NCBI GenBank assembly: GCA_000002445.1
Contig: CM000207.1
Span: 1,632,001 to 1,696,000 of the forward strand
Direction: 5' to 3'
DNA from: Trypanosoma brucei
Taxonomy: Eukaryota
Length of the DNA stretch: 64,000 nucleotides
Numbering within the stretch: the stretch's first letter is position 1; each line of letters opens with the position of its first letter. Both the position numbers and the translations under genes were made by a program. Of this stretch, positions 1 through 3,985 are shown in pieces. The notes under the pieces were generated by a model, which saw only the letters and a program-made list of their open reading frames with translations, searched no databases and was not told the origin of the DNA.

Positions 1-32
1 ATTATACACCTGACGTCAAGTGAAAAAAACTC

Positions 33-117
33 GGCGCGTCAGAAACAATATTAGCGTCACGGGTTCTGTTCAGATGTTGCTGTTAATTTGTTATATTAGG
101 TATTCATCACACGCACC
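33..117 (-). ncRNA. Box C/D snoRNA candidate (85 nt)
   Basis: Minus-strand RNA reads 5'-GGUGCGU-GUGAUGA-...AACAGCAACAU-CUGA-...GCUAAUAUUGUUU-CUGA-CGCGCC-3'. It has a canonical C box (GUGAUGA), an internal D' (CUGA), a 3' D box (CUGA) and a 6-bp terminal stem (GGUGCG/CGCGCC). It lies in the same orientation as the transcription unit. Confidence 0.6.
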
Positions 118-135
118 TACTCGCCGAACTGCTAA

Positions 136-241
136 CCCCACACGTCAGCTCGGAGCGAAAGATAGAGTTCACAGTTGCATCGACATAGTGTGTTTCCGTT
201 CCGCCTACGCGGTATCGGAAGCTCTTTCATCAGTGGCGGGG
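136..241 (-). ncRNA. Box C/D snoRNA candidate (~105 nt)
   Basis: Minus-strand RNA reads 5'-CCCCGCCA-CUGAUGA-...-CUGA-CGUGUGGGG-3'. It has a C-like box (CUGAUGA, non-canonical first base), a D box CUGA about 85 nt downstream and a terminal stem (CCCCGC/GUGGGG). Confidence 0.45.
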
Positions 242-710
242 AACGACGGATGGGGGATAAACACTTAACAGAGGGGAAAATGTGCATGGAATAGGTAATA
301 CAATAAGAGAAGGGGGAAGTAAACAGGGAATCACGGAAGTAAGGTTCAGTGCAGGTCTGTGTTATGGTGTCCTCACAGGTTCTCGGTGCAATTTGAACAT
401 ATTGTACATCGTCACCCACTACATTCCCTCTCGACTACCCCGCCACTCACAACATTATACTGCCGCCCACATTAGCCATTCCAAACTCACTGCGGTAATG
501 TATCCTCGTGTGTGCTTGCGTGTATATGTGTATATATGTGTATGTGTATGGAGTCGCGCCCAAGTGCCCGAGGTTGAGTACCTGAAGGACACGATAGCCA
601 TCAGACCCGAAAGGTGATTTGTGTTGTATAGATCCCTCATGAATATGACGTCGGAACATGTTTGGACGCTCAACTAGTTTCCATCATCGGCCACACACAT
701 ACACAAACAT

Positions 711-760
711 ACAAGCACACACACATACACACACTCACATATATATATATATATATACAT
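711..760. repeat. Compound (CA)n(TA)n microsatellite inside repeat unit (also 2449..2500)
   Basis: Contains acacacacatacacacactcac followed by (at)n. Copy B has one extra CA and a T-to-C change, so copy number is unstable. Confidence 0.8.
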
Positions 761-1770
761 ACACGACAAACCTCCGCACACCCAAACACTTACTCAGAAG
801 TCAAACAGACAAAATTAACTGATGTCAGCATCAAATAAATTCAGCTGAAACACGGATTTGACAGACTCATCATTGACACAAAACAAGGTAAGAGCAACAC
901 CACCAAACAGTTCAGAGCAGGAATAAGAAGGAGGGCGGCATGTACATATGTGTGTGGGGTAATGTTGGTGTAATGGGGAAAAGGTGAGAAAGTTACCGTA
1001 CGCCTCGGACGCAGGACGCACGCGGCTGGAATGTTGTGCGGCGCCCCAGAAACTATCGTAACACTCGTGCTCAATCCATGTTCGGGTGTGTGTCATAAGA
1101 CCGTCGTAAGTGGTTTATCGTCATGGGCAAAGTACAAGGTGTATCCGCAGTGACCAAAGAGACAATGCAGAATCTGGCAAAGAGAAAGGGCGAAAGCCAA
1201 GCAATAAGGGTGGTTTCAAATGTAAAACAAGGAAAAAGGGAGGGGAGGGGGGTGACAGTAACCACACACATGGTATGATAACGTGCCACGACGAAACCAA
1301 ACACCATCAGCCGGGGAAAGAAGAATATTCTTTAAATGGGTTATTGTCATTCAAATACACTCAGAGACTCCAGTCCATTGATGTCATCAAGTAGCGCGTT
1401 TACGACAGGTTAGGTGTACCGCAAAGCAACTCTCGGAGCGCACCAAGATGGCCTACGGCATGCAATCACAAAACGGCCGCTCCATGGCTAAAGCCCCTTT
1501 TTCATTTTTGTTGTCCATAAAAACACTGAAGGGAGAAAACAGAGGAAGGAGAAGGTAACAATATCAAACAAGAGAAGAGTGTGCACTAACCAATAACCTC
1601 CGTTATAATTCTCGGACCACGTGAGTGTGCAAACAAGGACACAGAAATGTTAGCCCAAGACACAACTCCAATGTGGGCCTTCCCCTACGGTTACTGCCCC
1701 AACACATAATTGTAATTATAATAATAACCATAATCATAATTATACACCTGACGTCAAGTGAAAAAAACTC

Positions 1771-1855
1771 GGCGCGTCAGAAACAATATTAGCGTCACGG
1801 GTTCTGTTCAGATGTTGCTGTTAATTTGTTATATTAGGTATTCATCACACGCACC
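1771..1855 (-). ncRNA. Box C/D snoRNA candidate (copy in repeat unit B)
   Basis: Identical to 33..117 at an offset of +1738. Confidence 0.6.
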
Positions 1856-1873
1856 TACTCGCCGAACTGCTAA

Positions 1874-1979
1874 CCCCACACGTCAGCTCGGAGCGAAAGA
1901 TAGAGTTCACAGTTGCATCGACATAGTGTGTTTCCGTTCCGCCTACGCGGTATCGGAAGCTCTTTCATCAGTGGCGGGG
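1874..1979 (-). ncRNA. Box C/D snoRNA candidate (copy in repeat unit B)
   Basis: Identical to 136..241 at an offset of +1738. Confidence 0.45.
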
Positions 1980-3985
1980 AACGACGGATGGGGGATAAAC
2001 ACTTAACAGAGGGGAAAATGTGCATGAAATAGGTAATACAATAAGAGAAGGGGGAAGTAAACAGGGAATCACGGAAGTAAGGTTCAGTGCAGGTCTGTGT
2101 TATGGTGTCCTCACAGGTTCTCGGTGCAATTTGAACATATTGTACATCGTCACCCACTACATTCCCTCTCGACTACCCCGCCACTCACAACATTATACTG
2201 CCGCCCACATTAGCCATTCCAAACTCACTGCGGTAATGTATCCTCGTGTGTGCTTGCGTGTATATGTGTATATATGTGTATGTGTATGGAGTCGCGCCCA
2301 AGTGCCCGAGGTTGAGTACCTGAAGGACACGATAGCCATCAGACCCGAAAGGTGATTTGTGTTGTATAGATCCCTCATGAATATGACGTCGGAACATGTT
2401 TGGACGCTCAACTAGTTTCCATCATCGGCCACACACATACACAAACATACAAGCACACACACACACACACACACTCACATATATATATATATATATACAT
2501 ACACGACAAACCTCCGCACACCCAAACACTTACTCAGAAGTCAAACAGACAAAATTAACTGATGTCAGCATCAAATAAATTCAGCTGAAACACGGATTTG
2601 ACAGACTCATCATTGACACAAAACAAGGTAAGAGCAACACCACCAAACAGTTCAGAGCAGGAATAAGAAGGAGGGCGGCATGTACATATGTGTGTGGGGT
2701 AATGTTGGTGTAATGGGGAAAAGGTGAGAAAGTTACCGTACGCCTCGGACGCAGGACGCACGCGGCTGGAATGTTGTGCGGCGCCCCAGAAACTATCGTA
2801 ACACTCGTGCTCAATCCATGTTCGGGTGTGTGTCATAAGACCGTCGTAAGTGGTTTATCGTCATGGGCAAAGTACAAGGTGTATCCGCAGTGACCAAAGA
2901 GACAATGCAGAATCTGGCAAAGAGAAAGGGCGAAAGCCAAGCAATAAGGGTGGTTTCAAATGTAAAACAAGGAAAAAGGGAGGGGGGGTGACAGCAACCA
3001 CACACATGGTATGATAACGTGCCACGACGAAACCAAACACCATCAGCCGGGGAAAGAAGAATATTCTTTAAATGGGTTATTGTCATTCAAATACACTCAG
3101 AGACTCCAGTCCATTGATGTCATCAAGTAGCGCGTTTACGACAGGTTAGGTGTACCGCAAAGCAACTCTCGGAGCGCACCAAGATGGCCTACGGCATGCA
3201 ATCACAAAACGGCCGCTCCATGGCTAAAGCCCCTTTTTCATTTTTGTTGTCCATAAAAACACTGAAGGGAGAAAACAGAGGAAGGAGAAGGTAACAATAT
3301 CAAACAAGAGAAGAGTGTGCACTAACCAATAACCTCCGTTATAATTCTCGGACCACGTGAGTGTGCAAACAAGGACACAGAAATGTTAGCCCAAGACACA
3401 ACTCCAATGTGTCGCATTTTTTTTCGTAATATAGTTTTTGAAAGTTTATTCAAATTTTTTGGAAGAAGGCTGAGTTGTTGCAGGTTCTTTACCTATGATA
3501 GGTCATATTGCTGATTATATTTTTTGTTCAATTGTTTTTTGTGTATAGAATGATTTCTCCTTTTTTATTTTTTTTCACCAAGTGGCTTGATAATTTTGGT
3601 GGAACCAACTGTTTTTTTTTTTTTCGCATGATATATTGTTAATAAGTTGAAACTCAAAAGTAAATGAGTAGGGTAACCATTATTTTGTGATAACTGCACG
3701 TAGCTTCGCTATAGTTGAAGCATCGATGTGCCCTTTTTCATTACTTTTTTTTTTACGTTTCTTGCATTGTTTAGCAATTGAGTATCGATTTTGTGTCCGC
3801 TTCCGATATTACTTTGGCAGGGTCAGTGATGTGGTTTAACAAAAAGGAAAAAATCAGCTGAATGGTGTTGTTTACTTGTTTGATGCCATTACCACTTGTT
3901 TTTTATTTTCGCTGTTGCATCATATCGCAGCTGTTCTCGCTGCCGTTTGATTATCACTCTCTTGATGTAGTTGGTAGTAACGTTT

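What the first reader, a model, noticed from the sequence alone, without database searches (positions are those of the whole stretch)
33..117. Strong box C/D snoRNA candidate with terminal stem, C, D' and D boxes
The minus-strand RNA is 5'-GGUGCGU-GUGAUGA-(32 nt)-CUGA-(29 nt)-CUGA-CGCGCC-3'. The C box is canonical, D' sits about 32 nt downstream and D about 65 nt downstream, and six terminal base pairs (GGUGCG/CGCGCC) close the molecule. This arrangement is unlikely by chance, and it recurs identically at 1771-1855.
Basis: seen in the sequence. Interest (0 to 1): 0.7.

Follow-up and report, generated by a model that had tools for sequence, protein, structure and literature searches.

The report
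Known trypanosome C/D snoRNA, TB9Cs2C6
The candidate is a real box C/D small nucleolar RNA gene, almost certainly the already catalogued Trypanosoma brucei snoRNA TB9Cs2C6, which directs 2'-O-methylation of one uridine (Um714) in 18S ribosomal RNA, so it is correct but ordinary.

Summary
The minus strand of 33-117 is an 85-nt RNA with a canonical C box (GUGAUGA), two CUGA boxes (D', D) and a 6-bp terminal stem. An identical copy lies at 1771-1855. The spacers are 30 and 27 nt, not 32 and 29. Chance gives about 0.01 such arrangements per window.

The window is the T. brucei chromosome-9 snoRNA cluster TB9Cs2. Rfam finds TB9Cs2H1 twice, and nine published T. brucei primers for TB9Cs2C3 and C5 match exactly. 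The cluster is a 1738-bp tandem repeat carrying seven C/D and one or two H/ACA-like genes, all on the minus strand.

The 12 nt upstream of D' (UUAACAGCAACA) pair perfectly with UGUUGCUGUUAA. A published primer shows this sequence in T. brucei 18S. The fifth-nucleotide rule selects a U. Published RiboMeth-seq lists SSU Um714 (stoichiometry 0.84), guided by TB9Cs2C6. The six other C/D genes of the repeat map by target to C1-C5 and C7, which leaves C6 for this gene.

The D-box guide (UAAUAUUGUUU) found no credible rRNA target. T. brucei rRNA itself was not available, so that guide remains unassigned.

Verdict: interpretation supported, already known, low interest.

The parts
33..117 (-). Box C/D snoRNA gene, copy 1 (85 nt), identified as TB9Cs2C6
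   Evidence: Sequence read. Motif arrangement is far above chance. D' guide target found. Literature assignment.
1771..1855 (-). Box C/D snoRNA gene, copy 2, identical to copy 1
   Evidence: Exact identity shown. It is part of the 1738-bp tandem repeat.
104..110 (-). C box GUGAUGA (RNA positions 8-14)
75..86 (-). D' guide UUAACAGCAACA (RNA positions 32-43). It forms 12 perfect Watson-Crick pairs with 18S UGUUGCUGUUAA. The fifth nucleotide upstream of D' (A40) faces the target U.
   Evidence: Duplex shown. The T. brucei 18S sequence comes from primer 18SqRv in PMC11894013.
70..73 (-). D' box CUGA (RNA positions 45-48)
54..60 (-). Degenerate C' box candidate GUGACGC (RNA positions 58-64; 5 of 7 matches to RUGAUGA)
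   Evidence: Read directly from the sequence. This is an inference, not independently tested.
43..53 (-). D guide UAAUAUUGUUU (RNA positions 65-75). No credible rRNA target was found, so it is unassigned.
39..42 (-). D box CUGA (RNA positions 76-79)
112..117 (-). 5' half of the terminal stem, GGUGCG
33..38 (-). 3' half of the terminal stem, CGCGCC
1..3415 (-). TB9Cs2 snoRNA cluster: two tandem units of about 1738 bp. In order of transcription each unit carries H1 (1610-1679), a probable H2 (1431-1498), C7 (~1300-1395), C1 (~1040-1130), C2 (~790-878), C3 (597-694), C4 (342-~418), C5 (141-237) and C6 (33-117). The second unit lies 1736-1740 bp further on, depending on small spacer indels.
   Evidence: Rfam RF01554 hits; repeat structure; exact published primer matches; guide-to-rRNA mapping; hairpin scan for H2.

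Best explanation
The 85-nt minus-strand RNA is a box C/D snoRNA of Trypanosoma brucei, most likely the catalogued TB9Cs2C6. It is encoded once per unit of the tandemly repeated chromosome-9 cluster TB9Cs2. Shown here: a canonical C box, D' box and D box with a 6-bp terminal stem; same-strand position 23 nt downstream of TB9Cs2C5; and a 12-bp perfect duplex between the D' guide and 18S rRNA UGUUGCUGUUAA, which puts the second U of GUUGC opposite the fifth nucleotide upstream of D'. Inferred from established C/D snoRNP biology: the C/D and C'/D' motifs form kink-turns bound by SNU13, NOP56, NOP58 and the methyltransferase NOP1 (fibrillarin). The guide duplex places that uridine in the NOP1 active site, and it becomes 2'-O-methylated (SSU Um714). 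Also inferred from what is known of trypanosomatid snoRNA clusters: the RNA is cut out of a polycistronic precursor together with its cluster neighbours. The second guide, upstream of the D box, has no assigned target.
For: The motif arrangement occurs twice in the window against 0.01 expected. Rfam finds TB9Cs2H1 at 1610-1679 and 3346-3415 on the same strand. Nine published T. brucei primers for TB9Cs2C3 and C5 match the window exactly, twice each. They place C5 at 141-237, directly upstream of the candidate. The D' guide has a single 12-bp perfect Watson-Crick match in a complete kinetoplastid-like rDNA unit, at SSU U678 of L017. The same 22-nt rRNA sequence is in T. brucei 18S according to primer 18SqRv for Tb927.2.1452. 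Published RiboMeth-seq lists SSU_714 as a U with score 0.84, guided by TB9Cs2C6. Its listed neighbours SSU_680 (U) and SSU_721 (A) match the bases at -34 and +7 in L017. The other six C/D genes in the unit map by guide complementarity to the published targets of C1, C2, C3, C4, C5 and C7. The spacings agree: C3 and C5 share an offset of 59, the two C2 sites are 17 nt apart, and the two C7 sites are 26 nt apart. Only C6 remains for this gene. Box-adjacent 11-mer complementarity to rRNA occurs 15 times in the window against about 2 expected, and 14 of the 15 are in the two repeats. All nine differences between the repeats lie in spacers, never inside a snoRNA gene.
Against: I could not obtain the published TB9Cs2C6 sequence or the full T. 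brucei rRNA sequences; the two key papers, Liang 2005 and Rajan 2020, are not held. The name and the number 714 therefore rest on elimination and on base and spacing consistency, not on direct sequence identity. The D guide has no convincing target. No Rfam family reaches its gathering score at this locus; the best is SNORD96 at 22.7 bits against a threshold of 43. The overall fold energy is no better than shuffled sequence (z = -0.18), which is normal for C/D snoRNAs and is neither support nor refutation.
Confidence: 0.88

Rival explanations
1. It is a genuine C/D snoRNA of the TB9Cs2 cluster but carries a different published name, or is an unnamed extra member. TB9Cs2C6 would then be another gene, and the match to SSU Um714 would belong to a redundant guide.
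For: The name was assigned by elimination and target matching, not by sequence identity. The bounds of C1 and C4 are only approximate.
Against: A scan of the whole unit found exactly seven box-adjacent guide regions with rRNA complementarity. Six of them fit the published targets of C1-C5 and C7. No other element in the unit pairs with the SSU U site. The transcription order C1 to C5 followed by this gene fits the name C6.
Confidence: 0.06
2. Its main role is pre-rRNA folding or processing, acting as a chaperone through base-pairing that includes the unassigned D guide. Methylation of Um714 would be secondary. This is what has been reported for its neighbours TB9Cs2C1, C3 and C5.
For: Three members of the same cluster affect trypanosome-specific LSU processing. 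The D guide has no methylation target in the rRNAs tested. If the listed C5 silencing primers were used as a pair, they span window 23-502 and would include this gene.
Against: The papers read do not list C6 among the abundant processing snoRNAs. The D' guide meets the methylation rule exactly at a highly methylated site. No complementarity to spacers could be tested.
Confidence: 0.05
3. It is a chance co-occurrence of short motifs, or a dead gene copy carried along in a repeat.
For: The boxes are short, and the overall fold energy equals that of shuffles.
Against: The expected number is 0.01 per window. The guide makes a 12-bp perfect duplex in the correct register; I calculate roughly 4e-4 for one guide in one register against about 6.2 kb of rRNA. 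The gene lies on the same strand inside a known snoRNA cluster. It is invariant between repeats while the spacers vary.
Confidence: 0.01

Closest known systems
TB9Cs2C6, a box C/D snoRNA of Trypanosoma brucei (catalogued by the Michaeli laboratory; listed as guide of SSU Um714 in PMC9283944 Table 2)
   Same: It lies in the same cluster (TB9Cs2), on the same strand and in the expected position after C5. Its D' guide selects an SSU uridine whose sequence context and neighbouring Nm sites fit Um714.
   Different: No difference is known. Sequence identity could not be checked because the papers carrying the sequence are not held.
Neighbouring cluster members TB9Cs2C5 (snR60-like, LSU-alpha Gm1028) and TB9Cs2C3 (snR39b-like, LSU-alpha Gm925)
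   Same: They share the compact C/D architecture, the repeat unit and the minus strand, and are probably part of the same precursor.
   Different: They target LSU rRNA and have reported roles in srRNA1 and LSU processing. The candidate targets SSU, and no processing role was found in the papers read.
Rfam C/D families SNORD96 (RF00055), snoR38 (RF00213) and snoZ266 (RF00332)
   Same: They give weak full-length alignments that reflect the generic C/D layout.
   Different: The scores of 18.9-22.7 bits are far below the gathering thresholds of 43-45, with E-values of 0.7-8.5. The candidate is not a member of these families.
Yeast snR77 / human SNORD65 (18S Um578/Um627) and yeast snR47 / human SNORD36 (18S Am619/Am668)
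   Same: They guide methylation in the same 18S region, from the 530 loop to the following helix. By my own alignment from memory of yeast 18S, T. brucei Um680 corresponds to yeast Um578 and T. brucei Am721 to yeast Am619. This fits the bases found in L017.
   Different: On that same alignment, Um714 corresponds to yeast U612. To my knowledge yeast U612 is not methylated, so the site would be specific to trypanosomatids or at least absent from yeast and human. This rests on recollection and was not tested here.

Membership tests
Box C/D snoRNA (methylation guide) | C box RUGAUGA near the 5' end | tested here: met
   GUGAUGA at RNA positions 8-14, window 104-110 minus strand.
Box C/D snoRNA (methylation guide) | D box CUGA near the 3' end | tested here: met
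   CUGA at RNA positions 76-79, window 39-42 minus strand.
Box C/D snoRNA (methylation guide) | Short terminal stem that brings the C and D boxes together | tested here: met
   GGUGCG pairs with CGCGCC: 6 bp including one G-U. The stem is closed in the minimum-free-energy fold.
Box C/D snoRNA (methylation guide) | Internal D' and C' boxes | tested here: inconclusive
   D' is a canonical CUGA at positions 45-48. The best C' candidate, GUGACGC at 58-64, matches only 5 of 7 consensus positions. Degenerate C' boxes are common, but this one was not tested independently.
Box C/D snoRNA (methylation guide) | At least 10 nt of complementarity to rRNA ending next to D or D', with the target opposite the fifth nucleotide | tested here: met
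   The D' guide forms 12 perfect Watson-Crick pairs at positions 2-13 with 18S UGUUGCUGUUAA. This is the only such match in the L017 rDNA unit, and the sequence is present in T. brucei 18S. The D guide does not meet this criterion.
Box C/D snoRNA (methylation guide) | The predicted target is an experimentally mapped Nm site | tested here: met
   PMC9283944 Table 2 lists SSU_714, a U, with RiboMeth score 0.84. The bases at -34 (U), 0 (U) and +7 (A) agree with the listed sites 680, 714 and 721. T. brucei numbering was not verified on the full 18S sequence.
Box C/D snoRNA (methylation guide) | A stable RNA of about 85 nt is expressed and bound by NOP1, NOP56, NOP58 and SNU13 | not testable with these tools
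   Literature only. PMC3273796 reports that 79 C/D snoRNAs are expressed in procyclic T. brucei. No locus-level data could be read here.
TB9Cs2 cluster of T. brucei / TB9Cs2C6 | Lies in the tandemly repeated chromosome-9 cluster that carries TB9Cs2H1, C3 and C5 | tested here: met
   Rfam RF01554 scores 86.8 and 70.5 bits. Nine published primers match exactly. The repeat unit is 1738 bp.
TB9Cs2 cluster of T. brucei / TB9Cs2C6 | Guides SSU Um714, and the other named members are accounted for by other genes | tested here: met
   C1, C2, C3, C4, C5 and C7 are assigned to other genes in the unit by their targets and spacings. Only this gene pairs with an SSU uridine.
TB9Cs2 cluster of T. brucei / TB9Cs2C6 | Sequence identical to the deposited TB9Cs2C6 | not testable with these tools
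   Liang 2005 and Rajan 2020 are not held. A full-text search for the sequence found nothing.
Rfam SNORD96 / snoR38 / snoZ266 | Covariance-model score at or above the family's gathering threshold | tested here: not met
   Scores are 22.7, 22.7 and 18.9 bits against thresholds of 43, 45 and 43.

The most novel reading that the evidence does not exclude
The D-box guide (UAAUAUUGUUU) is a true orphan guide. It would act on something other than mature rRNA, for example a T. brucei-specific pre-rRNA spacer, an snRNA, the SL RNA or an mRNA. Alternatively it supplies accessory pairing that helps 18S folding near Um714. The snoRNA would then have a second, undescribed function.
Probability: 0.12. Interest if true: 0.3.

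Novelty: already known. Interest (0 to 1): 0.08.

Why it matters
It matters little as a discovery. The gene belongs to a snoRNA cluster that has been catalogued and partly dissected experimentally in T. brucei since 2005. The result does show that the first-stage reader can recognise a genuine C/D snoRNA from raw sequence. It also gives a clean positive control: box layout, terminal stem, a guide in the correct register and a mapped Nm site all agree. The one small open point is the unassigned second guide.

Tried and rejected
1. Rfam at gathering thresholds gave no C/D family at the locus. With permissive E-values only generic sub-threshold C/D hits appeared (SNORD96, snoR38, Z266), so membership of those families was rejected.
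2. Tandem Repeats Finder found nothing because the 1738-bp period exceeds its limit. The repeat was shown with the repeat finder and BLAST instead.
3. I first guessed that the candidate was TB9Cs2C5, because a C5 'silencing construct' primer overlaps it. The C5 1-20 sense primer and the antisense primers place C5 at 141-237, so this was rejected.
4. Full-text searches for the snoRNA sequence found nothing. Liang 2005 (DOI and PMC1370750) and Rajan 2020 (PMC7549662) are not held. PMC3273796 has no supplements held.
5. I searched for a D-guide target in one complete and 28 partial kinetoplastid-like rDNA loci. Only 9-11 bp runs with two or more G-U pairs (one locus had 10 bp with one), and none at a consistent, credible site. 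A recurring weak site about 175 nt downstream of the D' target has 6 A-U and 3 G-U pairs and mismatches at positions 1-2. I rejected it as a guide target.
6. Thermodynamic folding gave z = -0.18 against shuffles, which is uninformative for this RNA class.
7. There are no tRNA genes in the window.
8. I ran no further search on naming the organism, because the exact primer matches and the Rfam TB9Cs2H1 hits already identify it.

Full report
**Observation**

The minus strand of window 33-117 reads 5'-GGUGCGU GUGAUGA (30 nt) CUGA (27 nt) CUGA CGCGCC-3', 85 nt in all.
- The C box occupies RNA positions 8-14, D' positions 45-48 and D positions 76-79.
All else is as stated.
- G1-G6 pair with C80-C85: six pairs, one of them G-U. 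The minimum-free-energy fold closes this stem.
- The copy at 1771-1855 is identical.
- I searched both strands of the window for the whole arrangement: RUGAUGA, an internal CUGA, a terminal CUGA and a terminal stem of at least 5 bp. Only these two copies were found, against 0.01 expected per window in 300 Markov randomisations.

**Where this is**

Rfam, at its curated thresholds, finds the trypanosomatid H/ACA-like snoRNA TB9Cs2H1 (RF01554) at 1610-1679 and 3346-3415. Both hits are on the minus strand, scoring 86.8 and 70.5 bits.

The first 3.4 kb of the window is a tandem duplication of a unit of about 1738 bp at 99.5% identity.

Supplementary Table S1 of Chikne et al. 2019 (PMC6411936) lists primers for TB9Cs2C3 and TB9Cs2C5. 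All nine that I tested match the window exactly, once in each repeat. The window is therefore the TB9Cs2 snoRNA cluster of Trypanosoma brucei chromosome 9, or of a near-identical strain.

The primers labelled 'TB9Cs2C5 (1-20 nt)' and 'antisense 76-96' place C5 at 141-237 on the minus strand. The candidate is therefore not C5. It is the next gene downstream, 23 nt after the 3' end of C5.

All 18 ORFs of at least 250 aa in the window also lie on the minus strand. This fits the polycistronic organisation of trypanosomatid genomes.

No T. brucei rRNA is in the window, and none of the tools hold it. I took two routes.
- A published qPCR primer for the T. brucei 18S gene Tb927.2.1452 is 18SqRv, CCCTTTAACAGCAACAGCATTA (PMC11894013). 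It shows that T. brucei 18S contains 5'-UAAUGCUGUUGCUGUUAAAGGG-3'. Generic Trypanosoma 18S primers contain the same core.
One of them, L017, carries a complete rDNA unit with a 2218-nt SSU, a 5.8S and an LSU.

Results for the two guides:
- **D' guide.** UUAACAGCAACA (RNA positions 32-43, that is positions 2-13 upstream of D') forms 12 consecutive Watson-Crick pairs with UGUUGCUGUUAA. This is the only such match in the whole L017 unit. The nucleotide opposite the fifth position upstream of D' is the second U of GUUGC.
- **D guide.** UAAUAUUGUUU found nothing better than 9 bp with 3 G-U pairs in L017. It had no consistent site across the 29 loci.

**Is that U a known Nm site, and what is the gene called?**

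Table 2 of Rajan et al. 2022 (PMC9283944) gives RiboMeth-seq stoichiometries for T. brucei rRNA. It lists SSU_714 as a U with score 0.84 in procyclic cells, guided by TB9Cs2C6. The neighbouring entries are SSU_680 (U) and SSU_721 (A). In L017 the bases 34 nt upstream and 7 nt downstream of the predicted target are U and A, so the pattern fits.

I then mapped every box-adjacent guide in the repeat unit against L017 rRNA and compared the results with the same table:

| D or D' box at window position | Target in L017 | Published gene and site |
|---|---|---|
| 604 | LSU G866 | C3, LSU-alpha Gm925 |
| 148 | LSU G969 | C5, LSU-alpha Gm1028 (same offset of 59 as C3) |
| 349 | SSU G1842 | C4, SSU Gm1895 |
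| 844 and 797 | LSU A706 and C723, 17 nt apart | C2, LSU-alpha Am743 and Cm760 |
| 1096 | LSU C3467 | C1, LSU-beta Cm1413 |
| 1310 and the CUGA near 1362 | LSU G2743 and U2769, 26 nt apart | C7, LSU-beta Gm659 and Um685 |

Six of the seven published C/D names are thus taken by other genes. The one remaining name, C6, has an SSU uridine as its target, and this gene pairs with an SSU uridine. The order on the transcribed strand (C1, C2, C3, C4, C5, then this gene) also fits the name.

I conclude that the candidate is TB9Cs2C6. This is an inference by elimination and by target. The papers that print the sequence are not held, and a full-text search for the sequence found nothing.

**Strength of the guide evidence**

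Perfect 11-mers complementary to L017 rRNA that end 0-2 nt before a CUGA occur 15 times in the window, against about 2 expected. Fourteen of the 15 are the seven guides in each of the two repeats, all on the minus strand.

All nine differences between the two repeats within their shared 1675 bp fall in spacers. None falls inside a snoRNA gene.

**Mechanism**

Shown here: the box layout, the terminal stem, the guide duplex and its register, and the position in the cluster.

Inferred from established C/D snoRNP biology:
- The C/D and C'/D' motifs fold into kink-turns bound by SNU13.
- NOP56, NOP58 and two copies of NOP1 (fibrillarin) assemble on them.
- The 12-bp guide-rRNA helix places the nucleotide opposite position 5 in the NOP1 active site, giving Um714.

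From the literature: the site is highly methylated. Its score drops slightly on NOP1 silencing (0.84 to 0.78, p = 0.04).

The best C' candidate (GUGACGC) is degenerate. It leaves an 11-nt, almost purely A/U spacer as the D guide. That is a weak guide, and I could not assign it a target.

From my own recollection of yeast 18S numbering, T. brucei Um680 and Am721 correspond to yeast Um578 and Am619. Um714 would then correspond to yeast U612, which I do not know to be methylated. If so, the site is one of the trypanosomatid-specific Nm positions. This was not tested here.

**Comparison and novelty**

The element is a textbook box C/D methylation guide and a member of a cluster described in 2005. 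Several members of that cluster (C1, C3, C5, H1) have been studied functionally. It matches no Rfam C/D family at threshold, which only means that Rfam has no model for it. Nothing about it is new.

The one loose end is the second guide. Its target could not be examined without T. brucei pre-rRNA and other small RNAs.

**Verdict**

The gene is already known, and interest is low (0.08).

Noticed in passing
window 23-42 (+) and 483-502 (-); also 1761-1780 and 2221-2240: Chikne et al. 2019 Table S1 lists two primers as the TB9Cs2C5 'silencing construct'. They bracket window 23-502. If they were used as a pair on genomic DNA, the 480-bp product would contain C4, C5 and the candidate C6, so the double-stranded RNA would not be specific to C5. 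In the same way, the C3 construct primers bracket 263-790, which covers C3 and C4, and the listed C3 northern antisense primer (342-361) lies at the 3' end of C4. The paper's methods say that 'mature snoRNA' was cloned, so the table and the methods may not agree.
   Followed up: partly
window 3346-3415 (-): Repeat homology ends at window 3411, four nucleotides inside the 5' stem of the second TB9Cs2H1 copy, which is the upstream one in the direction of transcription. Its 5' end reads GCGA instead of GGCC. This breaks two basal stem pairs and lowers the Rfam score from 86.8 to 70.5 bits. This boundary copy may be impaired.
   Followed up: partly
window 1431-1498 (-); second copy about 3167-3234: A 68-nt single hairpin ends in AGA and folds at -21.2 kcal/mol. 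It lies between H1 and C7 and has the layout of a trypanosomatid H/ACA-like snoRNA. It is probably the published TB9Cs2H2. It has no Rfam hit, and I did not check its pseudouridylation pocket against LSU.
   Followed up: partly
window 1-3411: All nine differences between the two 1738-bp repeats (3 substitutions and 2 indels, in spacers and microsatellites) lie outside the snoRNA genes. The window begins inside the cluster, so further repeats may lie beyond coordinate 1.
   Followed up: yes
window 498-552 and 688-760 (and 2236-2290, 2426-2496): (TG)n/(TA)n microsatellites flank the snoRNA genes. They produce spurious sub-threshold Rfam hits to mir-297 and mir-3149.
   Followed up: yes
window 6060-63942: All 18 ORFs of at least 250 aa are on the minus strand, the same strand as the snoRNA cluster. 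This is consistent with a single trypanosomatid polycistronic transcription unit that runs into the cluster. The proteins were not identified.
   Followed up: no
window ~54391 (-): An isolated 11-mer, AGTATCTTGCA, lies next to a CUGA and is complementary to L017 SSU rRNA. It falls inside a long ORF. About 2 such hits per window are expected by chance, so this one is probably not a snoRNA.
   Followed up: partly
window ~1040-1130 (-): The gene that I assign to TB9Cs2C1, an abundant snoRNA implicated in processing, has non-canonical boxes: AUGACGA as the C box and CUGG where a D box would be expected. The guide that matches LSU C3467 ends next to an AUGA rather than a CUGA. Its exact ends were not determined.
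   Followed up: no
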